Source: Cyanidioschyzon merolae (taxonomy: Eukaryota). From it: a DNA stretch of 64,000 nucleotides. The translations under genes were made by a program, and so were the position numbers. The notes under the pieces are model-generated. The model saw nothing but the letters and a program-made list of their open reading frames with translations. It was not told where the DNA came from and searched no databases. Shown here in pieces: positions 1 to 53,018 of this stretch (positions within the stretch are counted from its first letter, which is position 1; every line of letters begins with the position of its first letter). The stretch lies in the NCBI GenBank assembly GCA_000091205.1, contig AP006485.2. One strand, 5' to 3'.

Positions 1-369
1 CCCCCCATTCCCCCCATTTACCTCCAACCCACGCACTTCACGCACTTCCCCATTAACGCGATGATCCCAGTGCCAATGCATATGTGATTATGACTTCTAT
101 CTCTCAAAATTCATTACTGATCCGTCTTCGGCGGTACGATCTGAGCGCGTACGCATCTGTTATATCTCCATCTGGCATTCCATGATCATTACTGTTTTAC
201 CTCCAGCTTTTTTGTTTTTGGTTTTGACAGAACCTCTACACTGCCCAGACGGCCGTGACCTCCGGATCGATAATCGTTTCAGGAAATCAACCGTTCCGCT
301 GAATAGTTTCTTCAGCTTCCGTTGTATTTACTTAATCTCGGCTTTATTGATCTAGTCAGGCTTTTTATT

Positions 370-775: not shown

Positions 776-1518
776 TTCCTATTGAAGTTTACTGTAGTTT
801 GCGATAGTGCTTGCTATCCCCTTTGTGGGTAATTTTTTTGCATTCTCTTCGTCGCGCACCTGTTAATGACTTATCCTGAAATTTGGCCGTCACATCACAC
901 CACGTGCTTCTCGCCGATCAAGAGAAACCTGCTAATGACCTCTTCTGGAGCGACTGTTTTATCCATCGCGGCCACTTTTATTTTGCGATCGGGTCGTAGC
1001 AAAATATAGTTTTGGCTTCAATGGCGTTTCAATCTTCAAGTAAATGTTCTCAGCTGATTTTCGCTGCTCAAAGTAGAGGTCTTCAATGAGTTTTTCTCCT
1101 AAAAAATTAGACTAATGTAATTGGGGGAGTGGGTTTGGGGTGGCCGGTATTGTGTATTTCAGAATGAAACGTGACTTAGTGCCGATCGAAGAGGATCAGG
1201 AAAAAAAGAAGATGCAACATGGGGAGGTCTTACATTGAAGGCTTCAATAGTGACGTCTGTACGACGAGATGGTGGTGGAATCCTATCTTTTCCTACATAT
1301 CAATGATCCTTACCACTCAATGTTGCGAGACGTTATCAGAAACAGTGTCGGTTCGTACGCCATGTATATTTTTAACTTTTCTTGAAGACTGCGGCGTTTG
1401 GAGAGCGAGCTGCATCGGGACGTGACGCACACCGCGAAGGTGATGTTTCCGGAAGATTTTTCACAATAGACTTACATCAACCACCTGATTGTTTTTAATG
1501 GGAAAACATCGGGGATAA

Positions 1519-1893
1519 ATGAGCGAGTGCATGCCTTCCTCAAAAATTACGCCAAATACCTCGTCAGCGATGCTGAACGAGGGGGTGACGCCGACATTTT
1601 TCGAATACAGGGCAATGAGGTGCCTTACGAAAGTGAGGAACCATAAGATCGTAAACCTCGATTGTTTCATGAAACGCGTCGTCTTTGCGCTGTACCCGGG
1701 CCCGTTTCGCAAAGGGATGCTGGCAATCATCGATTGCAAGAAGAGCGATCGCCAGCATGAACAGGAGATCAGAATCGTCGACAAGAGGACATCAAACAGG
1801 AGAAAGAATCTTGCTTTCGTTATCCGCGCCACTATTCTAAAACATCGTTCGGTCTTGGGTCATGTCATCCCAAGTGAAAACTGTCAGATATGA
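1519..1893 (+). pseudogene. ORF-A companion protein remnant (copy C)
   Basis: 'FMKRVVFALYPGPFRKGMLAIIDCKKSDRQHEQEIRIVDK' aligns with ORF-A of copy B ('FMIRAVFALYPGISRKGIWAMINGVTNDRKYEDEIEFVDK'). An upstream in-frame stop breaks the N-terminal part. The TGA stop overlaps the next ATG (ATGA at 1890). Confidence 0.55.
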
Positions 1894-3306
1894 TCAAAGA
1901 AGACGAAGAGAGAATTTACTCCCTCATCTTGCCACACCTCATTTTTTCGGACAGAGAACACGCACGCAAGGCCGACATGGAGCAGAGTGCAGAAAAAATG
2001 ACGGGTGGGAGTACCGACATTGAAGGCCTTCTCCAGATGCGATTCATTGTGGTTCAGTTATGCGAGTTCAATTCATATTCTGTGAATATCGACTCTAGAG
2101 TCCTTTACGCCTTCACGAAATAGATCGGTCCAGAGCTCGATGTAAACTACAAAGAGATCACCGGCGAAGACCGGGACACCCTGGTAGAATATCTTCGATT
2201 TCAAGCGTCCCAAACCGGCCAAAGAAAGGTACTCACGGGGGCCATCGATTACGATGTGGTATACATAAACCTACACTCTCAGGGGTTGAAGGCACGTCGT
2301 CCTATCCCGTCTTCGTTATCTCACTTGCCGAAGCGCGTACACAAGAAGACGGGCGATGGAACGTATAATGCCCACGAAATCGTCTTTCTCTGCGGCCTTA
2401 ACCCCTTGAATACGAATATCATCAGCATCGCTGCTCCCAGGCGTGCGGAAGGTGGTACTGACGGCAACATGCCTCAGAAAGACCTGTTTTTGTTGGTGTT
2501 CTCGAGAGCGAGATGGTATCGGGAATCCGGGAGATTGAGTGCGAGGATGGACATCGACCCGTGGAGTGCAACAGTTAAGGATAACCCGGAAACTTTGAGC
2601 GAGGTGACATGCCCAAGAGCGGACTCTCTAGTTTTTTGGATATTCAAAGAAGTTCGCGTTGCACACTGGGATGCGCTGTGCAAGGAATACTCAAAGCCAC
2701 GGTAGACTCGTTTGCAAATGAATCTACGCGGTGGGAGGCAGCATGCATTTGCGAATTTCTTCAATCAGTTGAGCGCCTTGAAGGAGAATGAACGTCAGTG
2801 GCTCGTATTAGCATACGGAGCATGGCGCTGGAAGACCCAAAAAGGGTGTACACCAGCTCCAACGACTAGGGTGTACAAGGGGTGCGCAAGGCGTTTCGTT
2901 ACGATACCTGTAGATGAGTTCCGAACATCGTATACACACCATGAACTGGGTTGTACACTTCAGAGAATGGAGATTGAAAAGTGCCAGTGGAGCCCTGAGG
3001 ATGTGAAAACTACGGACCGCTGACAGAAGAGCAAACGGAAAGGAAAGCGATAGTTCGAGGGCTACTTGCATAAGTACCACCAACGGCAAGAACCGGAAAG
3101 AGTTTTTGAACCGAGACTTTAACGCCGCTATCAATAAAAGTAGATGTGCGGTACTAGAGAAAAGTCCTCCAGAATGGACAAAAGAGAACTTTCTAAGAGA
3201 ACCTCTCAAAGTCGAACTATATGAGAAACAATTGGAAGCAGTAATAGGTGTCCGGTCCAAAAAGACTGGGAGGCGTCTGCACTTCAGTTGGAGACGTTTC
3301 GTCTAG
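1890..3306 (+). pseudogene. TnpB/Fanzor-like RuvC nuclease, frameshifted (copy C)
   Basis: Pieces 1890-2123, 2256-2705, 2712-3023 and 3106-3306 lie in three frames. They carry 'GLNPLNTNIISIAAPRRAEGGTDG' (RuvC-I), '[31 protein letters not shown]' (RuvC-II plus Zn finger) and 'MNRDFNAAINKSRCAVL' (RuvC-III). Confidence 0.65.
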
Positions 3307-4015
3307 GGCGGACCGGTCGCCGCTACTGCACTATGCCGACGTCGTTCCGCTTTAGAACGGCGTTTGGCTGTGGGTGCAACTTTTCGACGTCATGCTTTCC
3401 AGTGCAGAAGGAGTAAAATTGTGCCACTGTAATCCATTTCTGCTTCTCTGCCGTCTGCGCCAATTCTGGATCATGTATCACTGTGGATGATATTTTGCGT
3501 TTTGAGAAAGTGTGGTTTACTGCTAAGGTTCATCTCTTTCCATGAATCAGTTCCTGAATGCGTTTACGCCACAGCTCCAAGTGTCAAGCAACAGAGCTGA
3601 CCGCTAACATCCACGACTGCGGAAACGGTCTAGAGGAGTCGTTTGCGCCCTGGCACAATCAACCACATCTCCAAGCTTCAATGTACTTGACTCACGGATC
3701 GCGAATTCTCATGTGCCCTGCATGTGCTGCTATGATCATCAACCAATATATGCACAACCCAATCTTGTTCTCAGATTATTTTCTTCACCGGTTTTTTCGA
3801 ATGCGCTCATATATAGATCCGGCTTCGCATATTCAGGTGCAGGACTCATGCCGCCTCCGTGATCCACGTGCTTAGCAGTATGTTGTCGAAGGCTTTTACG
3901 CAGTGAACCATACATTATTACCATTGCTTTGATAAGAACCTCAGCAGGTAGGCCTCGCAGCTTATGTTGTATCCCATATGCTAGTTGCGCCTGTACTCTA
4001 CGTCAAACTGGATGC

Positions 4016-6433: not shown

Positions 6434-7249
6434 CGAACGATCGCAAGACTAGACGTTTTCAATGACTGCAGCCACGTGCGTTGCGCGCGCAACGTTGGAA
6501 ACGCACGTTGCGCAACGCATGCAGCCGGTTCTGATCTCGAGATGCATGCGAGCACTTGAACCTGAACTATGTGGACCAATATAGAATGTAATGGACATTT
6601 ATGCACATGGACCAATCATCCAAAAGTTTGTTTCGATCTGCTACTGGTGGGATCCTGTACTAAACGGTACACATGGGACACCAACCAAGATGCACTAAAG
6701 GCCTTGGACTTGAAATGGAACAATCATGTCCTATTATTGTGTAAAAACGAATACGATGCATCATAATGCCAAAGTTCGGTTCCAAAGAGTCGCAGCAGCA
6801 CGCCCCTTGGGGCAGCCTGCAGCTGCCCCGATGCGCGAGCGCAAATGCGCGCATTCCGGGCAGCGGCGGTGTTGGCAATACGAAACAGTGGCGACATTTG
6901 TGTAAAGAGCGTCGAGGCGCCATCGTGGCGTCGGACACGTGTGCTTCATCGATCTGAGTAGCGTCTCGCGCGGTGCGCGCATCGCGCTCGGTGAGCGTCC
7001 CTGGGAGGTCGGGTAGTCAACGGACGCGACGCACTTGTCGCCGTTGAAGGGAAATGTGATCCTCAGGATTCGTTGGCGTGTTGTTCTAACATAAAACTTG
7101 TATTTGTATTGCAATCGTAACAAAATATATGGTTTCATCTCAGTCATGTTGCAGCCCTCAAGTAAAAATACTGGAGTGTTTTTTTCGCAGTATACAACAG
7201 GAACCTTCAAAGAGGGTTCTTTCTCAAAAAAAAACTAAAAAGGAAAGCT

Positions 7250-8042
7250 ATGAAAAAGCAAGTCCACGATCCTGGAGGTCCAGGGTCGGCGGCTGCTAGA
7301 AAAAAAACAAAAGACGGTGCCGAGTTCATAAGAAAAGGAAGAGAAAAAGAAGCAAAAATGGGAGGCCCTACGTAGAAGGCGGCAAGAAAGACGACCGCAC
7401 TACGAGGTTGTGGTGAAAACCTGTCTTCTTGGACATATCAAGGATCCCTACATGGAAAAGTTGCGAGACATTATCGAAAAACGTGTCGGCTCGTACTCCA
7501 AGAGCATTGTCAATGCGTCGTCAGGACTAATGCATTTGGTGAGGGAGATGTACCACGAAGTTACGCACATGGAAACGGTCGAGGTACCCTGACGGGTTTT
7601 TCGATAAGACTTTACTCATCACCTGATGCTTGGTACAGAGGAAACGCGGAAGGAAAATGAGCTAGTAAATGCCTTCCGCGAGAAACATCCCTTTTACAGT
7701 TTCGAGGGTACTCGATACAAGGGTGAACGGGATATTTACACTTACGAAGCGATGAAGTATCTCACGAATCTGCAGAACCATTTGACAGCGGACCTCGAAC
7801 GTTTTATGATACGCGCCGTGTTTGCACTTTACCCGGGCATCTCTCGCAAGGGGATATGGGCGATTATCAATGGCATCACGAAAGATCGCAAGCGTGACAA
7901 TGAGGTCGAATTTGTCGACAAGAAGGCCTCACGCAGGAGCACAAATGAGGATTCCGTCATCCGTGCGGTTATACAAGCGCACCGGGCAATCTCGAGGCTG
8001 GCGAATCCAGCAGGCAAGATATCAGAGTTGAAAAAAAGATAA
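7250..8042 (+). pseudogene. ORF-A companion protein (copy A), frameshifted
   Basis: The conserved leader ATG at 7250 ('aaaggaaagctATGaaaaagcaagtccacgatcc') gives 'MKKQVHDPGGPGS...', a basic Lys-rich leader ending at TAG 7373. The body then lies in other frames (7410-7592, 7626-8042) with a +1 insertion relative to copy B. It retains 'YTYEAMKYLTNLQNHLTADLERFMIRAVFALYPGISRKGIWAIINGITKDRKRDNEVEFVDKK'. Confidence 0.55.
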
Positions 8043-8160
8043 AATGCTGTCGCCTCATTCTGCTCGATTTCGTATTTCTGGACCGAGAGCTCGAACGCAA
8101 AGCGGAGATGAAGCTGAGTGAGGAAAAAATGAAGAATGGGAGAGACGGAAGGCGTTCCTA

Positions 8161-9600
8161 ACGGGGAAGCGCTTCAACGGGGTTCCGTTGTGCAACATCA
8201 AGTCACATTTTGTGAGTACCGACTCCGGCGTCCTTTATGGCATCATGGTGGGGTTCAGTCCGGAGTTCAAAGTTAGCAGGGAGGACTTCACCGGCGAGAA
8301 CCGGGTGACGTACTGGAAGAGTATCTTCGATTTCAAACCTGTAAAAGTCAGCAAACAGAAGGTATTCACTGGGTTGATCGAAACCGATGGAGTAGCCTTG
8401 TGCGTACACTACCGGCGGTTGAAGAAAGATCGGCCAGTCCCTCCCTTGGCTGCGCCCGTGACGAAGGATGCAGAAAACAAAGAGGCGGATGCTGCGACGC
8501 ACAGAGTGCAGGATAACGACTTTATTGTTGACGCGGCGAAGGATGACGATGAAAAGGAGGCGGTTCCTGAGACGGAGGAGATGGAGGATGACGACTTTGC
8601 GGTTGGCGCGGTGAAGGATGAAGAAAAGAAGGAGGCGGTTCCTGCGATGCAGGAGGTGCAGGATAACGACCTTGTCATTGGCACGGTGAAGGATGAAGAA
8701 AAGAAGGAGGCGGATCTTGAGACGCAGAAAGTGCAGGATAACGACTTTGTCGTTGGCGCGGACCCTGGAAATACGAATATCATCACCATCGCAGCACCGA
8801 AGCGTGCTGAAGATGGCACTGACGGTAACTTACGTCAGAAAGACATGCGTCTTTTAAGATTCTCGAGAGCGAGATACTACCGGGAATCAGGAACCATGAA
8901 TGCAAGGAAGAGAATCGAAACATGGAATGCCGGAAGAAAGGATCTCCTGGAAGCCTTGAGCGAGGTGACTAACCGAGGAGCGGACTTTGAAGCTTTTCGG
9001 AAACTCATGAAAGTTCGCGTTGCTCATTGGGATGCGCTGTGGGAGAAGTATACCAAGCCTCGGTGGGCTCGTCTGCGTATGAATCTATACGGTGGGAAGC
9101 AGCGGGCGTTTGCCAACTTTTTCAATCAGTTGAGTGCCCTCAAATAGGACAAGACTCAAAGGCTCGTAGTAGCAAATGGGGCAGGGCGATGGAAGACCCA
9201 AAAAGGCTGTACACCAGCTCCAACGACGCGAACGTACAAAGAGTGCGCAAGGCGTTTCGTTACGATACCTGTAGATGAGTTCCGAACATCGTATACACAC
9301 CACGAGCTGGGTTGTACACTTCAGAGAGTGGAGATGGAAAAGTGCTAGAGGAGCCCTGAAGATATAGTAAAGTATGGACCTCTGACGGAGGAACAAACGA
9401 AAAGGATGCGAAAGTTCGGGGACTACTTGCATCAGCATGTACAACCAGTGATGGCAAGAAACGTATGGAGTTTGTGAACCGAGACTTTCATGCCGCTATC
9501 AATGTCAGGAGATGTGCGGTGCTGCAGACGAGAACTCCAGAGCTGACACGAGAGAACTTTGTTGGACAACCTCTCAAAGACGAACTATATGAGAAAAATG
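8161..9600 (+). pseudogene. TnpB/Fanzor-like RuvC nuclease (copy A), disrupted
   Basis: Homologous to 16784-18025. The start codon is ACG, there is an in-frame TAG at about 9143, and there are more stops downstream. An internal ~84-nt tandem expansion is listed separately below. Confidence 0.7.
8455..8750 (+). repeat. Roughly 84-nt in-frame tandem repeat (about 3.5 units) inside the copy A nuclease ORF
   Basis: The repeating protein unit is 'KDEEKKEA(V/D)...[12 protein letters not shown]', and copy B has a single unit. The array ends at the RuvC-I motif 'GADPGNTN'. Confidence 0.7.
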
Positions 9601-9730
9601 GGAAGCAGTAGTAGGCAGCCGGCCGAAAAAAAAAGCCGGGAGGCGTCTGCATGTCAGTTGGACACTTTTCATGTGGGCGCCGGTCGCACTGCAGTAAACG
9701 CCCGACGTCGTTCGAGTTAGAACGGCGTTT
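9600..9730 (+). ncRNA. Conserved non-coding 3' tail of family 1 element (candidate omega-RNA / right-end region)
   Basis: 'gggaggcgtctgca..tcagttgga.ac.ttt...gggcg.ccggtcgc..ctgca.ta.cgcccgacgtcgttc.gtt.agaacggcgttt' is conserved between copies A and C and, more diverged, copy B, while the flanks are unrelated. Confidence 0.35.
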
Positions 9731-10700
9731 TGGAGCAGTCTGCAGAGCATCTGGTACTTTTTGCTTTGCCTTTATCGATATATGGATAAGGCTGTGGTTA
9801 CGATTCTTCTAGTACGGTCTTCTGACAGCCCGGGTCATTTCACTGCCTATTTTTTTCCAGGCACACCTTTTCATCTGCAGTGCGTCGACCGAATAGCCGT
9901 GAGAAGTTTACCCTCTTGGCCCTATAACTTTCTGACTTCATGCTTTCCACAGCACGAGCGCTAGAATTGTGCGATTCTAAAGCACTTCTGTCTTTCTGCC
10001 GCCTGGTGCTATTCTTGATCGTATTTCACTCAGAACAGCCTTTTTGGTTTTTGGAGAAATTCTGTTTCAAAGGTTTATCTGATATCTTCGCAACTGTCAA
10101 CTCCGTAATGCTTTCACAATACTACTCCAAGTGACACGCAACGAGGAGAAGCACGAATTTTTGTATCTGAAAGTAGACTCCATCGGAACGCCCCGCAAAC
10201 CTCTAGCCAGCATACTATTTCGATGCATAGATGCATGCGAAGCTCTGCTCACTCAGTCTCATGTGACCGACATCTGCTGCTATTCCTCTTCGCAAGTCTT
10301 GGCGCTACCGTACTTCTCTGTATATAAAACTGTATTCCGCGGCTTGCCTCGATTGCGCACAATAATAACTGTATGCAACTTTGCTCGTTCGTATAAGTTG
10401 CTATGGTTGTGCCCCTTATCAAAATCCCTGACAAAACGCAGTGCGAACCTTTTTCGAAATGTAACTCGTATGATCATCATCGCTTGATCATTATCCTAAG
10501 ACAGAAAAAGCGGAACCTAGAGTAGTACCATCGGTGCTGTTCGCCCCCGTGCTTCAGAGCAGATTGCCAGTTCAGCAAGCTGCAACTACAACACTTACGT
10601 AAGCCTCCGTTAAAACACGTGCTGCACTCGTCCAGTTATGATATAGCCTTTCTGCGTACTGCATGATACCCATAATACCCTCTGTGCCGAGCCCTGGTCC

Positions 10701-13334: not shown

Positions 13335-15206
13335 TTACACTGTGGAGAAGGCGCTCGCAGACGTCGACACAGAAGCTGAAACTGAAGCACTCGCGGATAC
13401 ACTCACAGAAGCTGTCGCAGAGGCCGTCGCAGAGACTGTTGCAGACACCGTCGCAGAGGGTGTCGCTGTCACAGCCACGGGACTCGGAGTCGGTGTTGGA
13501 CTAATGACCACACATTGGTTGTTGATGCACTCCTCGTCAGCGCGGCAGCAACGAACCTTGTTCACAAGGTTATCCGAAGGGATCAGGTACGTCCCGCACT
13601 GCTTCGTAGGGTCCTTGCACACACAGAACGACGGCAGCAGCACCTGTTGTTGCTGCTGTTGTTGCAATTGCTGCTGCTGCTGCTGGTTGTTGTTGTTGCT
13701 GAACGGGTTGTACGTGCAGTTCTGCGTCTCGGCGTTGCAGCACTCCGGGCCACACGGAATATAGCTCGAGTTCGATACGTTGCCGGTCGTGCCGCTCAGC
13801 GAGTTCGACACATACCCGTAGGTCTGGCACACGTACTCGGTCATCGGCTGGAAGCACTCGTTGCTGAGCCCCAGGCAGCAACCAGCCTCCAGACACTGCT
13901 GCGGCGAGTAGCTCGTGCGCTGCGTCCCGTGCTGCTCCCCGTACAGAAGCGTGTTCAGCAGACGCACAAACTGGTTATTGTTGATGTTATTGTTCAGCTG
14001 CTGGTTCTGATTCACCGCGTTCGTGCACGGCTGGCGCTCAAACTCGCCCACCGCGCACGTCTTCACGGGCTGGAAGCAGTACGGGTTCGACTCAAAGTCG
14101 CTCTGCTGCTTGCCGTTCTGCACCCACTGGTTCTGCGCCTGCGAGTCGTAGCAGCAGCCCTGGGCATAGCACGTAAACTGGTTGATGCCCGCGTTGCCGC
14201 ACGGCTGGCGCTGCGCTCCCGGTGACGGGCAGAGGGGAACCGGTGCCTGCACCTCCTGCAGCGCTACAGAGGCCTGCGGTGCATGGTTGATGTCGTAGTA
14301 GCACCAGGGTGCCAGGATGCCGTTCGCTGTGGGCTGCCAGCAGCATCCCGGTATCGCAGTGCACTCGTCGGGGTAGATATAGCTCCAGCCGCAGGGGACG
14401 CGCTGTGTCACTGGAACAGCGCTGCAGGCCGCTGAGACGCTCTTCAGGGTGCACGCGTTCGTCTGGGCGTTGAAGCAGCATCCGACTTGCTCGCAAGCGT
14501 CCTGGTTTGTGTACTGGCCCGGAGAACCGCAGATTTCACTCGTGCAAACTGGTGTTGGCGTTGCACTCGGTGTCGGGGTTATAATAGCAAGTGTCGCACC
14601 AGAGGGTAGAATTGTAGAAAGCAGGTCGGTGAAAGTTTGAAGCACAATTTGCAGTTCACTGGCGAGGGATGTGTCTCCTGAGATCTTAATCACATAGGTC
14701 ACAACACTGCCGCCCGAAGTGCGCACCAATGCTCGTTCCAGACGAGGATTGCTCTTGTCTAATGTGGTGGCGAGGCGCCTTGATGTACCCGAACCGAAGA
14801 CCGTGTCGCAGTTATCAGTCACGCTAACATTCACTTCCAGGCCTATGAAGCGAGCCTCGAGATCGTTCTGCAAATCCGTCGCCACGGCCAAACAAAGAGA
14901 AAGATTCTGAACGGATATCGCAATCGAGGTGGAAATCGTCGTCGGCACGATTGTTGGTGACGTTGTTGTAGTCGGTGTCATCGTAGGCGTCGGCGTCGGT
15001 GTCATCGTCGGCGTCGGTGTCATCGTCGCTGACACCGATGGAGCCACCGAACTTGTTGGTGACAATGTTGCAGTCGCTGTCATTGTCGATTGTGCTTCGG
15101 CCCCTAGCGTGGCACACCCAACAGCAAGCGACAGAGCTGCGACCAAGACGAACAACTGTTTACACAGTTCGCCGAAGTTGCGATATTTTCCTGCTCCTGG
15201 TCTCAT
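13335..15206 (-). CDS. Secreted multi-trefoil (P-domain) glycoprotein with TP/ST-rich, poly-Q and poly-N regions
   Basis: There is a signal peptide 'MRPGAGKYRNFGELCKQLFVLVAALSLAVGC' (ATG at 15206). Trefoil signatures include 'RVPCGWSYIYPDECTAIPGCCWQPTANGILAPWCYY' and 'RQPCGNAGINQFTCYAQGCCYDS...NPYCFQ', with two more degenerate units and (TP)n/(ST)n linkers. Confidence 0.7.
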   Translation of the reverse strand: MRPGAGKYRNFGELCKQLFVLVAALSLAVGCATLGAEAQSTMTATATLSPTSSVAPSVSATMTPTPTMTPTPTPTMTPTTTTSPTIVPTTISTSIAISVQNLSLCLAVATDLQNDLEARFIGLEVNVSVTDNCDTVFGSGTSRRLATTLDKSNPRLERALVRTSGGSVVTYVIKISGDTSLASELQIVLQTFTDLLSTILPSGATLAIITPTPSATPTPVCTSEICGSPGQYTNQDACEQVGCCFNAQTNACTLKSVSAACSAVPVTQRVPCGWSYIYPDECTAIPGCCWQPTANGILAPWCYYDINHAPQASVALQEVQAPVPLCPSPGAQRQPCGNAGINQFTCYAQGCCYDSQAQNQWVQNGKQQSDFESNPYCFQPVKTCAVGEFERQPCTNAVNQNQQLNNNINNNQFVRLLNTLLYGEQHGTQRTSYSPQQCLEAGCCLGLSNECFQPMTEYVCQTYGYVSNSLSGTTGNVSNSSYIPCGPECCNAETQNCTYNPFSNNNNQQQQQQLQQQQQQQVLLPSFCVCKDPTKQCGTYLIPSDNLVNKVRCCRADEECINNQCVVISPTPTPSPVAVTATPSATVSATVSATASATASVSVSASASVSASVSTSASAFSTV

Positions 15207-15877
15207 GCTTCTAGAGCTAAGAACTTCTTGTCGACACTAGGTTTTTGTGAATACTTATTTCTTACAGCTGCACCGGTTGCTGAGATGTTTTGTCGCACCG
15301 CGAGTTTCGCTATCTCTCTGGCTACGAAACAGCCCAGTCGGCTACCGAGCGCTGTGTGAAGAACACCAACGCAGCGGCGATAGCGCCTGTGAAAAAATTT
15401 AAAACGCGCAACATGCCTCGAAGCCGCGGCAATCGATGATCACGGCGAAGGAGAAACGGTTCGAGACGATCCCTGCAGGCGCGGTTTCGATTTCGCGTTT
15501 CGCGCCAAAAGCGATTGCGCAGACGTGTCCCCGAGCGAGCTCTGGTTTGCTTCATTATCGGCGTGGGGCACGTGTCCTTCATCGATCGGCGTAGTGTCCC
15601 GCGAGGCGCACGCATCGCGGTCAGTGAGCGCACCTCGGAGATCGAGCAGTCAACTGACGCGACGCGCATGGCTCCGTTGAAGGGAAACGCGGTTGGGATC
15701 AATAGCATGTTGTTCTACCGGAAAAAGTTGGATTTCCGTTCAGGTCGTAGCCAAGTACAGTCTTTCAGTTCGTTTCTGTTTGAAACTTCAAACAAGTCTA
15801 GTCAAGTGTTTTTCGTGGTTTATAGTAGACGCGTTCGTACCGCGTTCGTTCGCAAAAAAAACAAAAAAAGGAAAGCT

Positions 15878-16545
15878 ATGGAAAAGCAAGTCCACGATCC
15901 TGGAGGCCCAGGGTCGCCGGCTGCCAGAAAAAATACAAAAAACAGTGCCGAGTCCAGAAGAAAAGGAAGAGAAAAAGAGGCAAAAGGGGGAGGCCCTACG
16001 TTGAAGGCGGCAAGAAAGACGACTGTACGACGAGAAGGTGGTGAAACCCTTTCTTCTTGGACATATCCGTATGGGAAAAGTTGCGAGACGCTATCAAAAA
16101 ACGTGTCGACTCGTACTCCATGAGTATTGTCAAGACGTCGTCAGCACTGATGCATTTGGTGAGGGAGATGTATCGCGACGTGACGCACATGGAAACGGTC
16201 GAGACTCCGGACGGGTTTTTCGATAAGACATTTATTCGTCACCTGATGCTTGGCACAGGGGAAGCGCGGAGGGAAATTGAGCTAATGCATGCCCTCCACG
16301 AAAACTTCGCAGAATTCCGCTTCGAGGGTACCCCATTCAGGGGTGACCCGGATATTTACACATATGGGGCGATGAAGTACCTCACGAACCTGAAGAACCA
16401 TTTGACAATGAACCTCGAACTTTTCATGATACGCGCCGTGTTTGCACTCTACCCAGGCATCTCTCGGAAAGGAATATGGGCGATGATCAACGGCGTCACG
16501 AACGATCGAAAGTATGAAGATGAGATCGAATTTGTCGACAAGTAG
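15878..16545 (+). CDS. ORF-A companion protein of family 1 element (copy B); leader and body are in different frames and the C-terminus is truncated by a TAG
   Basis: Leader ATG at 15878 gives 'MEKQVHDPGGPGSPAARKNTKNSAESRRKGREKEAKGGG...' in frame 2 up to 16123. The main conserved frame 16057-16545 reads 'EKLRDAIKKRVDSYSMSIVKTSSALMHLVREMYRDVTHMETVE...YTYGAMKYLTNLKNHLTMNLELFMIRAVFALYPGISRKGIWAMINGVTNDRKYEDEIEFVDK*'. Copy A has AAG where copy B has the TAG stop. Confidence 0.55.
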
Positions 16546-16783
16546 GTGCCAAACGAGAGCACGAATGAAGCCTCTGTAATCCGTGCGGTTATACGAGAGC
16601 ACCGTGCAGTCTTGGGGCTGGCGAATCCAACAGACAATATCAGAGTTGAAAAAAGATAAGGAAAGATACTATCGCCTCGTCCTGCGGTATTTTGTGTTTC
16701 TGGACCGAGAGCTCGAACGCGAAGCGGAGATGAAGCTGAGTGAAGAGACAAATGATGAGTAGGAGATACGGACGGCTTTCCTA

Positions 16784-18025
16784 ATGGGTAAGCGCTTTAA
16801 CGTGGTTCCAATGTCCAATATCAAGTCACATTTTGTGACCATCGACTCCGCGGTCTTTTACGGCATCATGAAAGAGATCAGTCTGGAGTTCAGTGTCAGC
16901 AGGGAGGACTTCACCGGCGAAAACCGGGAGACGTACTGGAAGAGTATCTTCGATTTCAAACGCCTCAGAGTAAGCAAACAAAGGGTATTTACTGGGTTGA
17001 TCGAAACCGATGGAGTATCCTTGTGTATAGACTATCGGCGGTTGAAGAAAGATCGTCCAGTTCCGCCCTCGGCTGCGCCCGTGCCGAAGCATGAAGATGA
17101 GAAGGAGGCGGATCTTGAGACGCAGAAAGTGCAGGATAACGACTTTGTCGTTGGCGCGGACCCTGGAAATACGAATATCATCACCATCGCAGCACCGAAG
17201 CGTGCTGAAGATGGCACTGACGGTAACTTACGTCAGAAAGACATGCGTCTTTTAAGATTCTCGAGAGCGAGATACTACCGGGAATCAGGAACCATGAATG
17301 CAAGGAAGAGAATCGAAACAGGGAATGCCGGAAGAAAGGATCTCCTGGAAGCCTTGAGCGAGGTGACTAACCGAGGAGCGGACTTTGAAGCTTTTCGGAA
17401 ACTCATGAAAGTTCGCGTTGCTCATTGGGATGCGCTGTGGGAGAAGTATACCAAGCCTCGGTGGGCTCGTCTGCGTATGAATCTATACGGTGGGAAGCAG
17501 CGTGCGTTCGTCAACTTTTTCAATCAGTTGAGCGCCCTCAAGGAGAATGAAAATCAGAGGCTCGTAGTAGCAAATGGGGCAGGGCAATGGAAGACCCAAA
17601 AAGGATGTACACCAGCTCCAACGACGCGAACGTACAAAGAGTGCGCAAGGCGTTTCGTTACGATACCTGTAGATGAGTTCCGAACATCTTATACACACCA
17701 CGAGCTGGGGTGCACACTTCAGAGAGTGGAGATGGAAAAGTGCCAGAGGAGCCCTGAGGAAACAGCAAAGTACGGACCGCTGACGGACGAGCAAATGGAA
17801 AGGAGGGCGCAAGTGCGGGGATTGCTTGCATTAGTACGTACAATCAATGGCAAGAAACATATGGAGCTTGTGAACAGAGACTTTACCGCCGCCATCAATA
17901 TAAGGAAATGTGCGGTGCTGGAGGAAAGACCTCCAGAGTCGACACGAGAGAACTTTGTTGGACAACCTCTCAAAGTCGAACTATATGAAACAAAGTTGGA
18001 AGCAGTAGTACATGGCCCGCCGTGA
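16784..18025 (+). CDS. TnpB/Fanzor-family RNA-guided-type RuvC nuclease (413 aa, intact ORF)
   Basis: ATG at 16784. Motifs are RuvC-I '[21 protein letters not shown]', RuvC-II '[31 protein letters not shown]' (the E, then H/H/C/C residues in place of a C4 Zn finger) and RuvC-III '[20 protein letters not shown]'. The size and motif order match TnpB/Fanzor2-like proteins. Confidence 0.8.
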
Positions 18026-18125
18026 AATGCTAGGAGACGTACGCACATCGTCGAAAACGCTTCGTCCAGGGCGCGTCACTCGCTACTTCTGTACAACGCT
18101 GGCGTCGCTCGACTCTAGGTTTGCA
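18026..18125 (+). ncRNA. Family 1 3' tail (copy B), candidate omega-RNA region
   Basis: 'gctaggagacgtacgca...gggcgcgtcactcgctacttctgtacaacgctggcgtcgctcgactctag' aligns with the tails of copies A and C. Confidence 0.3.
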
Positions 18126-18424
18126 GTGCGCAACTGTGGTAAACGTTCTTGCGGGTTGCCTCTAGCTAGTGAAGACTTGAAATGTCAGGCCCAAGTCTTT
18201 ACAAGCTTGTAGCAAGACGCTTCTTGAGCAAGAGCACTGCGGGTTCTTCCACTGGGGCTGCAGACAGGCCGTTCTACGGCGGCCTGCGCGGGTTCCTGGA
18301 GCGGCTGAGGCGGGGCCGCATCTTCCGGGCCGACCTCGAACCGGAAAACTGGAGAGAGCCTTGGCGAGAGTCGCGTTTTCGTTATCCTTCTCCGGGGTAA
18401 GTTAGAATATGGTGCACTGAAGTG

Positions 18425-21878: not shown

Positions 21879-22067
21879 AGCTCAACACTGGACCGCTCTC
21901 GTTGCACGACCGGTCCCTGAAACAAGGCGTTCTCTGCCACAAGTTGATAAAAAGCCTTGCCCTAGGCGCCTCAAAAAGCTTTTACGGACCGCAGACTAGG
22001 TAGCGACGCAGCGCCTGTGATCCACAATCGATCGCACTGTTGCGCTTTTCTTTACCGTTAGACAAAT

Positions 22068-22570: not shown

Positions 22571-22589
22571 AAATTGCGGGACAGATAGT

Positions 22590-32145: not shown

Positions 32146-32569
32146 CGGCAGTCACCTGGTGATGCAGCACAAGCACTGCTGCTGAACCTGGGAAGCACTC
32201 TGTGGATGAGTTCTTCACGCGCGCACGCGCGCCCATAGTCTTTCAACTCAGTTGCATGATACCCGTAGGTGCGTAGAATAGAATGCTTTTTCGTGGTTTG
32301 TAGCAGCTGCCTTCGAATGCGTTCAATTCCAAAAATAGAAAATAGAAGGAAAACGTATGAATTTGGGAGTTGGGCATCCTAGAGGGCCGTCGCGGCCAGG
32401 TTCTACGAAGAAACGAAAGAATCCTCTTCTCACCGGCTATCGAGCGATGAGGACGAAGATAAAGAAGGCGGGAGATAGGAGTGAGAAAAGGAGTTTGCCC
32501 GACGAGACGATGTGGAGACACTGGTGACTCTGAGGGCACGAGTTCTAGGAATCCTTGCTATGGTGCATT

Positions 32570-32800
32570 CAACCAGTATCAGTGCACGCATGGAGTTCGT
32601 GAACCGAGACTTTAAAGCCGCCATCAATATCAGACGATATGTAGTGCTGTAGACGAGACCCGTGGAGCTGAAGCGATCCAACTTTGTGGGGAAGCCTCTC
32701 CGGCTCGCAGTGCGCGCGGAAAAGCTGAAGCCGATAGCAGGCGGCAGGTCACAAAAGGCTGAGAGGCGTCTGTGGCTGGATGCATGTATATACATACGCT
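32570..32800 (+). mobile_element. Family 1 (Fanzor-type) 3' fragment: RuvC-III end plus tail
   Basis: 'MEFVNRDFKAAINIRRYVVL*' is followed by '...ggctgagaggcgtctg', which matches the 3' ends of copies A, B and C. Confidence 0.6.
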
Positions 32801-49753: not shown

Positions 49754-50846
49754 GGAGCGCGCAGAACCCTATCGGTCGCTGAAGCGTAGCGGTACGGGAG
49801 CAGCTCACGAAACGCGCGCCGCAGCTGAGGGCGCACATTCGATTCGAGATTCGGCAAATAAAACAGTATAAAATTGTCATTAATGGGATGAAAGGTGTCC
49901 ACTGCTGGGATGATAGCTGTGAGGCAGACAGTGAGCGCTGCTTTGTAGCACGATACCAGTGCAGCGATAGTGAAGTCGCTGAAGCGTCAAACCCGCCGCT
50001 AGACCGAGGATAACGCGGTCAAGACTCGCGAGTATTGGGAAGATCGGTTTTGTACGGGGCTCCTCGGGCGCGATGCGCTCGTTCCAGCATAGCGGCAATG
50101 GGTTACAGCCTGCGTGACGTGCGTGACATTCTGCTCCGGGCTACTCGGCAGTGCGTCCGTTGTGCGCACTGGTACCAGTATGAAAGCGGAGTCGCGGACT
50201 GCGACTGTTAAGCGTGGGTGCACGATACCATCATCGGTGTCGGAAAGCTAATGTGTCTTTGTCTGGTGTTCGCAACGTGGTGCATCTGTACGCAGCAATG
50301 TCGATGAATAGAATACCATGCTCGATCAGTATTTACTTGGGAACGTTGCCCCGGGGGTACATAGATCGCCGTGCAGCCTTTCTGGATTACTGAATGATAC
50401 CACGCGAGTGTCTGGCTCAACACGTAATTCGAGTGCCATTTATCCTGGACAGTGAATTTGTTTCTCCGCAAGTCTCGCGCGTTTCCGAGCGATACGCGGA
50501 GTGAATTACGAACATTGAACTCGAAGCATCGCTCGATACGAAGCCGCTGGACGCTCACCAGACCCGACACATTTTCGTATTCTGATTGATGCAGTCAGGT
50601 GTCGATGCGGAAAAGATTTGCGCGCATGGTTGCTGGCGGAATCACTCCAGGATCGGTTTCAGACCTGCGACTACCACGCCATCTCAGGTTCGAACAGCTT
50701 ACCGTATACCATATCCGTGTATGCGCCTCTGTTTCATGCGCTCCCCGACCGTTTTCAGCGCAACCCGTGCTTGTGATGCATGTATTTCGTCCTGAACGCA
50801 TCGATGGGAATCCAGCAACTTCGATCGCTCCACTTGCTGTACGCTA

Positions 50847-53018
50847 ATGTCGACGGGGCACGCGTGCAGCCGCTCCACCACCAATTTCACGAACGTAGTG
50901 TCACGCCGACGCCGCCGCCGACGCTGCTGCACAGCCGTAAACACCAGCCGCTGCGCGTGCCGATCGCATCCCAGGACGCCACCGTTATTCAGAACGTTTT
51001 CGCAACGTACAAACGCAACTTCCATGTACGAACTGTGTCAACCAACGGGGACTGCTGGATACCCTTATTTTCTCTTTGGATCGCAACAGGATCAGCGTCT
51101 CAACTACAGATCGGTTATTGTGCACCGCGCTGGACTAGCTCAAGAGACGGCTGGCGATGGCGGCGTCAGCACGAGCAGCAGCGCTGAAACCGGGAACAGC
51201 GTCAGCGCTTTGGCGTCAGCAGCCGCAGGGCGTCGTGTCAAGTTTCGGGAGCTGCGTCGAACGAAAATCGTATGTACTATAGGGCCTCCGACGGCCTCTT
51301 ATGAGATGATCAAGGCTCTTGCAGACGCTGGAATGGACGTTGCTCGCTTGAACTTCAGTCACGGGACGTACGAGTTCCACAAGAAAGTATCGGACGCCGT
51401 CGATCGCGTCAATGAGGAGCGTTTTGAGAAAGCTCGTCGAAGGTGGACGTCGCACGACGAGGCACGTGAGCAGTTGACAGACTCCGCCAAATCGGTGGCG
51501 GTGTCTGACGCCGGTCCCCTGCGTACCGAGAGCACGTCAAGCTCCACTGACTCGCTGAATAGTGTGTCGGGCCTCGAGTACAGAAATGACGCTAAGAGCG
51601 CTCTGTATGTGCGCATTGGGAAAATGATGGACTCAAAAGGTGCGGAAGTGCGCAGCGGGGAGATCAACCGAGCGGAGGAGATTGCGAAGCGAATGGTGGA
51701 GCACGGCTTGGTGACCTCCGATCAGGTAACAGAACTCGTGAGCCAAAACACCATGTTAATGCCGGCAGGAAGCTCGCTCGTTCTGCGTTGTACGCATGAG
51801 GCATTTGAGAAGCAGCCGGAACCTCTTGAGGGTGTCGCGGTGAAAGGCTCCGTTTTACCTTTTGCGCCAGTAGTCGGTGTCAGCTATGCGGGATTCTTCG
51901 AGGACACAGCCGAAGGCGATTGTATTCTTGTTGATGGCGGTCTCTTGGAGTTACAGCTGGAGCGCAAGGACGCTGACAAACGGGATCTCATCTGCCGCGT
52001 GTTGGACGGTGGCGAGCTCTCGCCCCGTCGCCATTTGAACATTCGCGGAAAGACGGCGTCGTTGCCCTCGGTTACCGAATCCGATTGGAAGGATATCGAG
52101 TTCGCTGTGAAGGAACTCAACGTGGACTTTATCGCCTTGTCGTTTGTGAATGACGCTGAAACCGTTCACATGGTGCGAGAATTTGTCACGAAACTTGGCT
52201 CGCGGGCGGCGATCATCAGCAAGATCGAGAGCATGAAGGGTGTGCTGAACCTCCCCGCAATCATCGAGGCAAGCGACGGGGTTATGGTGGCGCGTGGCGA
52301 CCTCGGTAGCGAGCTGCCCCTGGAAGAGGTGCCTATCGTCCAGTCCTTCATGGTGCGTCTTTGTCGAGCGGCAGGCAAAGTGGTCATTACGGCCACGGAG
52401 ATGCTCGAGTCCATGATCGAGAAGCCCATCCCGACGCGGGCGGAGGCCTCGGACGTGGCCCATGCCGTGGAGCAGGGCGCCGATGCACTGATGCTCAGCG
52501 GCGAGACCGCCAAGGGAAAGTATCCGATCAGAGCCTGTGCCACGATGCGCCATATTATCATGCGACAAAACGAGCAGCTCATTGCAGACGAACGTGCTCG
52601 TCAGGGGCTGGATCCGATTGCCGGCTTTGCCGAGTGTTGCCGCGACGTGGAGCGTGTATCCGATGCCATGGCCCGAGCAGCGGTCTCTCTGGCGGAATCG
52701 TTAGACGCGGCCGCGATCATCGTCTTCACACGAACGGGCAACATGCCCAAGCGCCTCTCGAAGCTGCGGTCACGAATACCGATCGTTGCTGCGACTGCAG
52801 TTTCCGATATCCAACCGAAACTCTCGCTCTTGTGGAACGTATTCTGTGTAACCATTGAAGTGCAGGATACGTTTGAAGCAACGTTCCAACGCTTCAAAGA
52901 GGAAGTTTTGGCGGAGAACTTTTTACGAAAAGGTGATACGGTTGTGGTGGTACAGAGTGGCATGCGTGGTATCTGGCGAGAACAGGGCCATCATCTGCTC
53001 CGCTATGTGGTAATGTAA
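50847..53018 (+). CDS. Pyruvate kinase with a roughly 150-aa N-terminal extension and low-complexity insertions
   Basis: 'RRTKIVCTIGPPTASYEMIKALADAGMDVARLNFSHGTYEFHKK', 'IISKIESMKGVLNLPAIIEASDGVMVARGDLGSELPLEEVPIVQ' and 'VITATEMLESMIEKPIPTRAEASDVAHAVEQGADALMLSGETAKGKYPIRA'. Confidence 0.85.
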   Translation: MSTGHACSRSTTNFTNVVSRRRRRRRCCTAVNTSRCACRSHPRTPPLFRTFSQRTNATSMYELCQPTGTAGYPYFLFGSQQDQRLNYRSVIVHRAGLAQETAGDGGVSTSSSAETGNSVSALASAAAGRRVKFRELRRTKIVCTIGPPTASYEMIKALADAGMDVARLNFSHGTYEFHKKVSDAVDRVNEERFEKARRRWTSHDEAREQLTDSAKSVAVSDAGPLRTESTSSSTDSLNSVSGLEYRNDAKSALYVRIGKMMDSKGAEVRSGEINRAEEIAKRMVEHGLVTSDQVTELVSQNTMLMPAGSSLVLRCTHEAFEKQPEPLEGVAVKGSVLPFAPVVGVSYAGFFEDTAEGDCILVDGGLLELQLERKDADKRDLICRVLDGGELSPRRHLNIRGKTASLPSVTESDWKDIEFAVKELNVDFIALSFVNDAETVHMVREFVTKLGSRAAIISKIESMKGVLNLPAIIEASDGVMVARGDLGSELPLEEVPIVQSFMVRLCRAAGKVVITATEMLESMIEKPIPTRAEASDVAHAVEQGADALMLSGETAKGKYPIRACATMRHIIMRQNEQLIADERARQGLDPIAGFAECCRDVERVSDAMARAAVSLAESLDAAAIIVFTRTGNMPKRLSKLRSRIPIVAATAVSDIQPKLSLLWNVFCVTIEVQDTFEATFQRFKEEVLAENFLRKGDTVVVVQSGMRGIWREQGHHLLRYVVM

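What the first reader, a model, noticed from the sequence alone, without database searches (positions are those of the whole stretch)
15565..18125. Multicopy eukaryotic TnpB/Fanzor-type RuvC nuclease element with an intact 413-aa ORF
The ORF at 16784-18025 carries the full TnpB/Fanzor catalytic layout. RuvC-I is '[13 protein letters not shown]' (Asp), RuvC-II is '[17 protein letters not shown]...KC' (Glu plus an H/H/C/C metal site in place of the canonical C4 finger), and RuvC-III is '[10 protein letters not shown]' (Asp). There are three full copies in this window (~1.1-3.4 kb, 6.9-9.7 kb, 15.6-18.1 kb) and a 3' fragment at 32.6 kb, all in the same orientation and at different stages of decay. 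This pattern indicates a recently active OMEGA-type mobile element in a eukaryotic nuclear genome. At 413 aa the protein is small for Fanzor1 and closer to the TnpB/Fanzor2 size range.
Basis: partly seen in the sequence, partly recalled or inferred. Interest (0 to 1): 0.9.

Follow-up and report, generated by a model that had tools for sequence, protein, structure and literature searches.

The report
Decayed Fanzor1 transposon copies, already known
The region holds broken copies of CMe-1A, a Fanzor1 (eukaryotic TnpB-like, RNA-guided nuclease) mobile element already described in 2013 in this red alga, Cyanidioschyzon merolae; the '413-aa intact ORF' is only the C-terminal remnant of a ~700-aa protein, so the finding is correct in kind but not new.

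Summary
The ORF (16784-18025, 413 aa), its three motifs and the same-strand copies are real. Single-sequence searches (Pfam, NCBIfam, PDB) found nothing. A profile of 74 diverse relatives hit solved Fanzor1 structures (E=4.6e-22, 7.8e-13, 1.4e-7). A confident AlphaFold model (pLDDT 84.9) matched Fanzor1 structures first (E=2e-13, TM 0.66), far ahead of TnpB and Fanzor2. D126/E298/D366 align to SpuFz1 catalytic D383/E541/D606, and G265 fills the canonical RuvC-II slot, which is the Fanzor-type rearranged site.

The host is Cyanidioschyzon merolae 10D, at a chromosome end. Bao & Jurka (2013) already named this family CMe-1A: Fanzor1, ~150 copies, ~3 kb, no TIRs.

Four corrections apply. The ORF is a remnant of a ~700-aa protein, cut by stops and a frameshift. 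All window copies are dead. The proposed H/H/C/C metal site is not conserved, and the lineage lacks the CCCC zinc finger. Copies A and B belong to a segmental duplication, and B and C share a ~600-bp gene-conversion tract.

One addition: a conserved ~145-nt 3' tail ends in a terminal hairpin and is a candidate omegaRNA scaffold. Covariation support is only suggestive. Low interest.

The parts
15560..18124 (+). Copy C of the CMe-1A Fanzor1 element (about 2.56 kb). It is 5'-truncated by about 500 bp relative to the ~3.06-kb full element, and the 3' arm of its terminal hairpin is deleted.
   Evidence: Homology to 80 metagenome loci stops at 15559/15560 (or 15612-15614) and at 18103-18118. Upstream extension in other loci.
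15878..16783 (+). Degraded N-terminal half of the Fanzor1 coding region in copy C. It holds a K/R-rich start (MEKQVHDPGG...RRKGREKEAKGG), the 162-aa ORF 16057-16545, a stop at 16546, a frameshift near 16630-16680 and a stop near 16760.
   Evidence: Three-frame translation. Continuous reading in P0012/P0014/P0018. tblastn with the 699-aa P0123 shows frame 1 to 2 and 3 stops. Start codon at 15878.
16784..18025 (+). The 413-aa ORF, which is the C-terminal remnant (part of WED, plus RuvC and the NUC/TNB domain) of Fanzor1. D126 = 17159-17161, G265 (canonical RuvC-II slot) = 17576-17578, E298 (relocated catalytic Glu) = 17675-17677, D366 = 17879-17881.
17980..18124 (+). Conserved 3' tail overlapping the ORF end, a candidate omegaRNA scaffold. 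In copy C the terminal hairpin is broken (remnant at 18101-18123).
   Evidence: 46-sequence alignment A3. nhmmer hits only at copy ends. Per-sequence folds. Pair counts.
17089..17688 (+). Gene-conversion tract shared with neighbouring copy B: 97.2% identity against 82-85% in adjoining segments.
   Evidence: The orthologue L085 is only 91.5% identical to B in this tract.
6927..9733 (+). Copy B. It has at least 3 frame changes and at least 4 stops, plus an internal 75-bp tandem triplication at 8463-8761. Its 3' terminal hairpin is intact at 9703-9730.
1178..3370 (+). Copy A, the most decayed (about 71% identical to C, at least 7 stops). Its 3' terminal hairpin is intact at 3337-3365.
32532..32772 (+). 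3' fragment covering the last ~70 codons plus the first third of the tail.
50530..50937 (-). Diverged Fanzor1 remnant (RuvC-II/III region, about 30% aa identity, 4-5 stops), lying between a 5'-nucleotidase gene and a pyruvate kinase gene.
1..18 (.). Telomere repeat (CCCCCCATT)2, the reverse complement of AATGGGGGG. It places copies A-C within 18 kb of a chromosome end.
   Evidence: Repeat identity from PMC1955436.

Best explanation
The region is one of three tandemly oriented, inactivated subtelomeric copies of CMe-1A, the Fanzor1-encoding mobile element of Cyanidioschyzon merolae 10D. The ancestral element is about 3 kb. It has a 5' module, one ORF of about 700 aa and a structured 3' tail of about 100-145 nt. 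The ORF encodes, in order, a K/R-rich N-terminus, REC/WED, RuvC with the Fanzor-type relocated catalytic Glu, and a NUC/TNB domain without the CCCC zinc finger. By homology with SpuFz1, an intact copy would make an RNA-guided DNA endonuclease. Its omegaRNA scaffold would be transcribed from the 3' tail, overlapping the ORF end and finishing in the terminal hairpin. Its guide would be read from the flanking DNA just past the element end. In this window the protein is dead. Copy C keeps only a 413-aa C-terminal ORF after stops and a frameshift, and its terminal hairpin is broken. Shown here: family identity, truncation, catalytic-site layout, host and chromosome-end position, conservation of the tail and hairpin, the segmental duplication, and the gene conversion. 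Inferred: RNA-guided cleavage, omegaRNA identity of the tail, and the mode of mobility.
For: Host: five neighbouring proteins are exact matches to C. merolae 10D proteins on a 481,791-bp record, and the window starts with the telomere repeat. Prior description: Bao & Jurka 2013 (PMC3627910) report CMe-1A as a Fanzor1 family with ~150 copies ~80% identical to consensus, ~3 kb, no TIRs and TSDs undetermined. This matches my copies at 71-93% identity, the absence of TIRs and the 2.56 + ~0.5 kb length. Homology: a family profile hits PpFz1 at 4.6e-22, SpuFz1 at 7.8e-13 and GtFz1 at 1.4e-7, and 15/74 members touch Pfam Cas12f1-like_TNB. Structure: pLDDT 84.9, and the top 7 Foldseek PDB hits are all Fanzor1. 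Active site: D126 74/74, G265 74/74, E298 74/74 and D366 73/73. These align to SpuFz1 D383/E541/D606 (with PMC10432273), and the rearranged layout is as described in PMC10530073. Truncation and decay. Past function: dN/dS is about 0.2 between copies in the RuvC core. No present constraint: 8 of 8 differences from orthologue L082 are non-synonymous. 3' tail.
Against: The window ORF alone gives no hit in Pfam, NCBIfam or PDB, and a shallow-alignment model was useless. The assignment therefore rests on profile and structure evidence. The CCCC zinc finger, part of the 2013 motif definition and present in SpuFz1 and ISDra2 TnpB, is absent. I could not align to the Repbase CMe-1A consensus itself, so equating the copies with CMe-1A rests on matching species, family, copy properties and length. 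Covariation in the tail is modest, and RNAalifold found no consensus structure. Part of the tail is coding in most copies, which could explain its conservation. No RNA data were available.
Confidence: 0.92

Rival explanations
1. The 413-aa ORF is a functional, N-terminally shortened or domesticated nuclease kept by selection, a 'mini-Fanzor' comparable in size to TnpB/Fanzor2.
For: The ORF is open for 413 codons and keeps D/E/D. ORFs of exactly 413 aa occur at the orthologous locus in related strains (P0001, P0002). The model folds confidently.
Against: Upstream in-frame homology to the missing ~300 N-terminal residues is present but broken by stops and a frameshift, so this is a remnant and not a compact design. 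Against orthologue L082, 8 of 8 differences are non-synonymous, and against L085 omega is 0.56, compared with ~0.2 between functional lineages. The ORF carries derived substitutions at near-invariant sites: Y264N next to the RuvC-II slot and N368T in NRDxNAAxNI. The REC/WED part that holds the guide-target duplex in SpuFz1 is missing. Its own 3' hairpin is deleted. The exact protein is not on record as a called gene.
Confidence: 0.04
2. The conserved 3' terminal hairpin is mainly a DNA-level transposition signal, like a Helitron 3' hairpin or an IS200/IS605 right-end hairpin read by a trans-acting HUH transposase. It would then not be part of an omegaRNA, or not only that.
For: There are no TIRs (PMC3627910). 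The hairpin ends 1-3 nt from the element boundary and is kept in two sequence variants with different registers. The 5' ends are variable and modular while the 3' end is fixed. Bao & Jurka found Fanzor1 inside Helitrons in other species.
Against: No Rep/Hel or Y1 transposase gene lies in the window or next to the copies. No 5'-TC...CTRR-3' termini or A|T insertion site were established. In TnpB and Fanzor systems the transposon right end and the omegaRNA scaffold are the same DNA, so the two readings are not exclusive.
Confidence: 0.25
3. The three copies are not independent transposition events. They mostly result from subtelomeric segmental duplication and gene conversion of one or two old insertions.
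For: A and B share downstream flank and paralogous Kelch+Hint genes at a constant ~6.36-kb offset. B and C share a 97%-identical 600-bp tract inside otherwise 82-85% identical copies. C. merolae chromosome ends carry duplicated blocks of up to 20 kb (PMC1955436).
Against: C has flanks unrelated to A and B. The family is dispersed in many unrelated gene contexts in metagenome contigs, so it was mobile. This reading modifies the main explanation rather than competing with it.
Confidence: 0.6

Closest known systems
CMe-1A (Fanzor1 element of Cyanidioschyzon merolae; Bao & Jurka 2013, Mobile DNA 4:12)
   Same: Same species, same protein family, multicopy, ~80% inter-copy identity, ~3 kb full length, no TIRs, no clear TSDs, and a 5' module shared with another repeat (TE-N2_CMe).
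   Different: Nothing essential, so this is that element. The window copies are 5'-truncated and inactivated. The 2013 paper does not describe (in the text I read) the structured 3' tail and terminal hairpin, the absence of the zinc finger, or the subtelomeric duplication and gene conversion.
SpuFz1 (Spizellomyces punctatus Fanzor1; PDB 8GKH; Saito et al. 2023)
   Same: Best structural match (E=2e-13, TM 0.66). The catalytic D383/E541/D606 align to D126/E298/D366. Gly occupies the canonical RuvC-II slot. [quoted passage not shown]
   Different: SpuFz1 elements have 30-nt inverted repeats and a CCCC zinc finger, and CMe-1A has neither. Sequence identity is only ~18%. The window ORF lacks the N-terminal REC/WED half.
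PpFz1 (Parasitella parasitica Fanzor1; PDB 9CF0) and GtFz1 (Guillardia theta; 9CER)
   Same: PpFz1 is the best sequence-profile match (4.6e-22), with the same motif order DPG ... DEFRTS ... NRD.
   Different: Both keep the CxxC...C(x)nC zinc ligands. The CMe-1A lineage has none of them at the aligned positions, and the wider clade keeps only the third Cys (54/74).
ISDra2 TnpB (PDB 8H1J) and mimivirus Fanzor2 (9B0L)
   Same: Same superfamily: RuvC fold, with the omegaRNA taken from the transposon right end.
   Different: Much weaker structural match (E=3.8e-4 and 1.3e-3, TM 0.25-0.29). ISDra2 TnpB has the canonical RuvC-II Glu. Both are associated with IS200/605 or IS607 transposases. Their ~400-aa size is native, not the result of truncation.

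Membership tests
Fanzor1 (eukaryotic TnpB homologues) | Significant sequence similarity to bona fide Fanzor1 proteins | tested here: met
   A family profile (74 sequences including the window ORF) hits PpFz1 at 4.6e-22, SpuFz1 at 7.8e-13 and GtFz1 at 1.4e-7, with nothing else below E=0.1. The single sequence alone gives no hit.
Fanzor1 (eukaryotic TnpB homologues) | RuvC-I Asp and RuvC-III Arg-Asp (D ... RD of the Bao & Jurka motif) | tested here: met
   D126 is 74/74, and R365-D366 are 73/73. They align to SpuFz1 D383 and D606.
Fanzor1 (eukaryotic TnpB homologues) | Rearranged RuvC-II: inert Gly or Pro at the canonical Glu position, and an alternative catalytic Glu downstream, next to the [TS][TS] motif | tested here: met
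   G265 is 74/74 in 'AYG'. E298 is 74/74 in 'VDEFRTS', 33 residues downstream, and aligns to SpuFz1 E541. The feature is as described in PMC10530073, which cites a spacing of about 45 residues.
Fanzor1 (eukaryotic TnpB homologues) | C4 (CCCC) zinc finger between the [TS][TS] motif and RD | tested here: not met
   At positions aligned to SpuFz1 C942/C945/C980/C985 (chain numbering) the window ORF has H305, L308, L350 and no Cys. In 74 relatives only the third position is mostly Cys (54/74). I still file the protein under Fanzor1. The founding paper itself lists the C. merolae protein as Fanzor1, and homology and fold evidence are strong. It is a zinc-finger-degenerate lineage.
Fanzor1 (eukaryotic TnpB homologues) | Fold: WED + RuvC + NUC core superimposable on solved Fanzor1 | tested here: met
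   Model pLDDT 84.9, pTM 0.81. The top 7 Foldseek PDB hits are all Fanzor1, E=2e-13 to 1e-9, TMq 0.47-0.66.
Fanzor1 (eukaryotic TnpB homologues) | Full-length architecture (~600-750 aa with N-terminal disordered/NLS region and REC) | tested here: not met
   This applies to the window ORF, which has 413 aa; the N-terminal ~300 aa are present only as broken frames. It is met by relatives such as P0123 (699 aa), P0130 (673 aa) and L003 (722 aa).
Fanzor1 (eukaryotic TnpB homologues) | omegaRNA encoded at the 3' end of the element, with the guide read from the flank | tested here: inconclusive
   The ~145-nt tail is conserved in 72 of 81 loci and found only at copy ends. The terminal hairpin folds in about 32/46 tails. 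Pairing is 76.6% against 40-52% in slid controls, and both-side changes number 28 against 18.8 (4/500). RNAalifold and Rfam gave nothing. No expression data.
Fanzor1 (eukaryotic TnpB homologues) | RNA-guided, TAM-dependent DNA cleavage | not testable with these tools
   Needs biochemistry. No TAM could be derived because the 5' terminus is not defined.
CMe-1A (Repbase family of C. merolae) | C. merolae host; ~3 kb; Fanzor1 ORF; no TIRs; copies ~80% identical | tested here: met
   Host by exact protein matches. Length 2.56 kb plus a ~0.5-kb 5' module. No TIRs. Copy identities 71-93%. Description in PMC3627910.
CMe-1A (Repbase family of C. merolae) | Nucleotide identity to the deposited CMe-1A consensus | not testable with these tools
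   The Repbase consensus is not in any accessible collection.
TnpB / Fanzor2 | Native ~400-480-aa protein, closest to TnpB/Fanzor2 structures, IS607/IS605 context | tested here: not met
   The 413-aa size results from truncation. TnpB (8H1J) and Fanzor2 (9B0L) match at only E=3.8e-4 and 1.3e-3, TM 0.25-0.29. No serine or Y1 recombinase lies nearby.
Helitron-type non-autonomous element | 3' subterminal hairpin with 5'-TC...CTRR-3' termini and A|T insertion; Rep/Hel in autonomous copies | tested here: inconclusive
   A 3' terminal hairpin is present. Canonical termini and insertion site were not established, and no Rep/Hel was seen in the window or the fetched flanks.

The most novel reading that the evidence does not exclude
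CMe-1A-type Fanzor1s could form a working RNA-guided system with an undescribed architecture. The clade also includes green-algal proteins such as Tetrabaena socialis TSOC_005131. Its features would be a NUC domain that has lost the CCCC zinc finger, no inverted repeats, and an omegaRNA whose scaffold overlaps the ORF end and finishes in a conserved terminal hairpin just before the guide. Rare intact copies in thermo-acidophilic Cyanidiales would then be a source of naturally heat- and acid-adapted eukaryotic RNA-guided nucleases. The dN/dS of ~0.2 between copies would reflect long-term selection for that activity.
Probability: 0.3. Interest if true: 0.45.

Novelty: already known. Interest (0 to 1): 0.15.

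Why it matters
As a discovery it matters little. The family, the species and even this element were published in 2013, and Fanzor biochemistry and structures followed in 2023-2024. There are three points of practical value. First, standard single-sequence annotation (Pfam, NCBIfam, PDB phmmer) completely misses this protein, and the only precomputed label is a weak DUF8286 hit. Fanzor1 remnants of this clade are therefore probably under-annotated in algal genomes and hot-spring metagenomes, where I found 484 relatives. Second, Fanzor-derived sequence makes up about 13% of this 64-kb chromosome end, in a genome reported to be only ~0.7% transposon. Third, the conserved 3' tail and hairpin and the zinc-finger-less NUC domain give concrete, testable leads for anyone wanting a Fanzor from a thermo-acidophile.

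Tried and rejected
1. Pfam and NCBIfam scans of the 413-aa ORF and the upstream 162-aa ORF gave nothing meaningful.
2. phmmer against PDB, and a shallow 42-sequence profile against PDB, gave nothing.
3. AlphaFold with the shallow alignment gave pLDDT 35.6 and was unusable.
4. A literature search for DUF8286 found no papers.
5. An inverted-repeat search for TIRs in all three copies found only short chance pairs.
6. RNAalifold on the 3' tails predicted no pairs, probably because the two hairpin variants pair in different registers.
7. An Rfam E-value scan of 15300-18400 gave no hit.
8. I tried to define the 5' terminus and a TAM. Loci fall into several groups with different repeated 5' modules joined to a common core at about 15612, and the distal boundary could not be fixed.
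9. I rejected the idea that the 240-bp gap between the 162-aa and 413-aa ORFs is an intron. Relatives read straight through it, and the window sequence there is homologous but carries a stop and a frameshift.
10. I considered reading 'recently active' from the 93% B/C identity and rejected it. That figure comes from a 97%-identical conversion tract inside 82-85% identical copies.
Full report
OBSERVATION. It runs ATG to stop at 16784-18025 on the + strand and encodes 413 aa. It contains the three quoted motifs. blastn of the region against the window confirms three same-strand copies: A at 1178-3370 (about 71% identical to C), B at 6927-9733 (81-93%) and C at 15560-18124. There is also a 3' fragment at 32532-32772.

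WHAT THE PROTEIN IS. Single-sequence methods fail. Pfam, NCBIfam and phmmer against PDB return nothing for the ORF. The large protein collection holds 192 close, unnamed relatives from JGI and ENA metagenomes, some with a weak precomputed DUF8286 hit. A profile of those shallow relatives still finds no solved structure, and it gave a useless AlphaFold model with pLDDT 35.6.

An exhaustive HMM search of 1.84 billion representatives then revealed a large family. It has 1,465 representatives at E<=1e-3, and full-length members are 600-750 aa. A profile of 74 diverse members plus the window ORF (A2) hits only Fanzor1 entries in PDB:
- Parasitella parasitica Fz1, E=4.6e-22
- Spizellomyces punctatus Fz1, E=7.8e-13
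- Guillardia theta Fz1, E=1.4e-7

Fifteen of the 74 members touch Pfam Cas12f1-like_TNB, the former OrfB_Zn_ribbon domain. With the deep alignment, the 413-aa ORF folds confidently (pLDDT 84.9, pTM 0.81). The seven best Foldseek matches in PDB are all Fanzor1 structures (E=2e-13 to 1e-9, TM up to 0.66). ISDra2 TnpB (3.8e-4, TM 0.25) and mimivirus Fanzor2 (1.3e-3, TM 0.29) lie far behind.

ACTIVE SITE. In the 74-sequence alignment D126 (GxDPG) is 74/74, E298 (VDEFRTS) is 74/74 and R365-D366 (NRDxNAAxNI) are 73/73. Saito et al. 2023 give the SpuFz1 metal-binding residues as D383, E541 and D606 (PMC10432273). Chain 8gkh_P carries a 394-residue MBP offset, so these are chain residues 777, 935 and 1000. 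Those are exactly the residues aligned to the family D, E and D.

Jiang et al. 2023 (PMC10530073) showed that Fanzors replace the canonical RuvC-II Glu with Gly or Pro and use an alternative Glu about 45 residues downstream. Here the canonical slot is the invariant G265 in 'AYG' (74/74), and E298 lies 33 residues downstream.

ZINC FINGER. The proposed H/H/C/C metal site is not supported. H305 and H306 are His in about a third of relatives, C310 is Cys in 2/74 and C320 in 3/74. At the positions aligned to the SpuFz1 CCCC ligands the window ORF has H, L, L and no Cys. The wider clade keeps only the third Cys, in 54/74. This lineage has a degenerate zinc finger. That is a departure from the 2013 motif definition and from SpuFz1 and ISDra2 TnpB.

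'INTACT' IS WRONG. Homologues P0012, P0014 and P0018 read continuously through the upstream 162-aa ORF (16057-16545), the 240-nt gap and the 413-aa ORF. A 699-aa relative (P0123) aligns to copy C from 15916 onward, with a frame change near 16630-16680 and three in-frame stops. Copy B has at least 3 frame changes and at least 4 stops, and copy A is worse. A K/R-rich start, MEKQVHDPGG...RRKGREKEAKGG, lies at 15878. From there to 18025 would give about 716 aa. The 413-aa ORF is thus the C-terminal remnant (part of WED, RuvC and NUC) starting at an internal Met. The argument that it is 'small, closer to TnpB/Fanzor2' falls.

HOST AND PRIOR KNOWLEDGE. Five neighbouring ORFs are exact matches to Cyanidioschyzon merolae 10D proteins (BAM78958 to BAM78971) on a 481,791-bp record. 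The window begins with (CCCCCCATT)2, the complement of the C. merolae telomere repeat AATGGGGGG (Nozaki et al. 2007, PMC1955436). Copies A-C therefore lie within 18 kb of a chromosome end.

Bao & Jurka 2013 (PMC3627910) list one Fanzor1 family in C. merolae, called CMe-1A. They report about 150 copies, each about 80% identical to consensus, about 3 kb long, with no TIRs and undetermined TSDs. [quoted passage not shown] My measurements agree. No TIRs were found. Homology across 80 metagenome loci stops at 15559/15560 (or 15612-15614) and at 18103-18118. Loci that extend further add about 500 bp of 5' module, giving about 3.06 kb. That module is absent from the window, so B and C are also 5'-truncated. 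The finding is therefore already known.

ANATOMY BEYOND THE ORF. The last ~145 nt of the element (17980-18124 in C) are conserved in 72 of 81 loci and occur only at copy ends. In most copies the reading frame runs into this tail, so ORF end and tail overlap.

The tail ends in a hairpin of 8-12 bp, 1-3 nt before the boundary. It folds in about 32 of 46 independent tails, and half have z<-2. It exists in two sequence variants that pair in different registers: CGTCGTTCGA-CTT-TCGAACGGCG and AACGTTTTTC-TTTT-GAAAGACGTT. Copies A (3337-3365) and B (9703-9730) keep it, and copy C has lost the 3' arm.

Explicit pair counting over four hairpins gives 76.6% paired cells, against 40-52% for slid controls. 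Cells changed on both sides number 28, against 18.8+-3.3 expected (4/500 shuffles). RNAalifold and Rfam found nothing. This is suggestive, not proof.

[quoted passage not shown] By position and size, the CMe-1A tail is the obvious candidate scaffold. A DNA-level role for the hairpin in mobility (Helitron-like or IS200-like) is not excluded and is not incompatible.

EVOLUTIONARY STATE. Between copies, the RuvC core shows dN/dS of about 0.2 (median 0.23 over 79 loci; C against B gives 0.27). Most inter-copy divergence therefore accumulated in functional source lineages. This echoes Bao & Jurka's remark on long-lasting coding capacity.

The window ORF itself shows no constraint. P0001 and P0002 lie at the locus orthologous to copy C in related strains, with the same B14.5a and enoyl-CoA hydratase neighbours. 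Against L082, 8 of 8 differences are non-synonymous. Against L085, omega is 0.56, while the adjacent host gene differs at 1 of 423 nt.

The differences are clustered. In 17089-17688 copy C is 97.2% identical to neighbouring copy B, against 82-85% elsewhere, and the L085 orthologue is only 91.5% identical to B there. This is a B-C gene-conversion tract.

Copies A and B also share downstream flank and paralogous Kelch+Hint genes at a constant ~6.36-kb offset. They belong to a segmental duplication, in line with the duplicated subtelomeric blocks reported for this genome. 'Recently active' is thus not supported for these copies. Only a few of the 80 best metagenome loci approach intactness, for example L003 at 722 aa.

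VERDICT. But the element is the published CMe-1A Fanzor1 family, the ORF is a truncated remnant, all copies in the window are dead, and the metal-site and size arguments are wrong. Modest additions from this work are the conserved 3' tail and terminal hairpin as a candidate omegaRNA, the zinc-finger-less NUC domain across a clade that also includes a green-algal protein (Tetrabaena socialis), and the subtelomeric duplication and gene conversion. Interest is low.

Noticed in passing
window 4016-6433 (-) and 10701-11852 (-): Two paralogous genes encode Kelch-repeat + Hint-module (hedgehog/intein-type) proteins of 805 aa and 383 aa (truncated). Each lies just downstream of a Fanzor copy. Together with copies A and B they form a ~6.36-kb subtelomeric segmental duplication.
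   Followed up: partly
window 17089-17688 vs 8689-9290: A ~600-bp gene-conversion tract links copies C and B (97.2% identity inside copies that are otherwise 82-85% identical). The orthologous copy in a related strain (L085) lacks it. A second cluster of differences between orthologues lies at 16279-16488.
   Followed up: yes
window 21941-22650: A perfect 16-nt tandem repeat array of more than 34 units lies just beside the enoyl-CoA hydratase gene (19995-21878) and overlaps mechanical ORFs on the minus strand.
   Followed up: no
window 8463-8761 (copy B); also P0003/P0004: A 75-bp (25-codon) tandem triplication sits in the acidic linker just upstream of RuvC-I (…KHEE/DEKKEA..TQKVQDN…). The same unit is variably repeated in metagenome homologues, so this linker expands and contracts.
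   Followed up: partly
window 13335-15206 (-): A 623-aa secreted-looking protein has Thr/Pro/Ser-rich mucin-like ends, trefoil (P-type) domains and a poly-Q/N stretch. It lies directly upstream of copy C, and the exact sequence is not in the protein collection.
   Followed up: no
loci L003 (1-1656 minus, 2932-5666 plus) and L078: Two CMe-1A copies are arranged head-to-head about 1.3 kb apart. In L019 and L070 the 5' module of one copy directly abuts the C-terminal coding end of another copy that lacks its tail. Nested or tandem insertions appear common.
   Followed up: no
loci L001-L081, junction at window-equivalent ~15612: At least four groups of loci share the Fanzor core from 'ATCGCGCTCGGTGAGCG' onward, but each group carries a different 5' module that is itself repeated. 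This suggests modular exchange of 5' regions (promoters?) between subfamilies.
   Followed up: partly
whole window: Fanzor-derived sequence totals about 8.2 kb, or 12.8% of this 64-kb chromosome end. The genome paper estimated transposons at ~0.7% genome-wide, so CMe-1A copies may be concentrated near chromosome ends or were not counted then.
   Followed up: no
window 15566-15577 and 6933-6944: A near-perfect palindrome GG(G/A)CACGTGTCC containing a CACGTG (E-box/G-box-like) core lies at the 5' edge of copies C and B. It is conserved in the loci that share this 5' region and could be a promoter element or a DNA hairpin.
   Followed up: no
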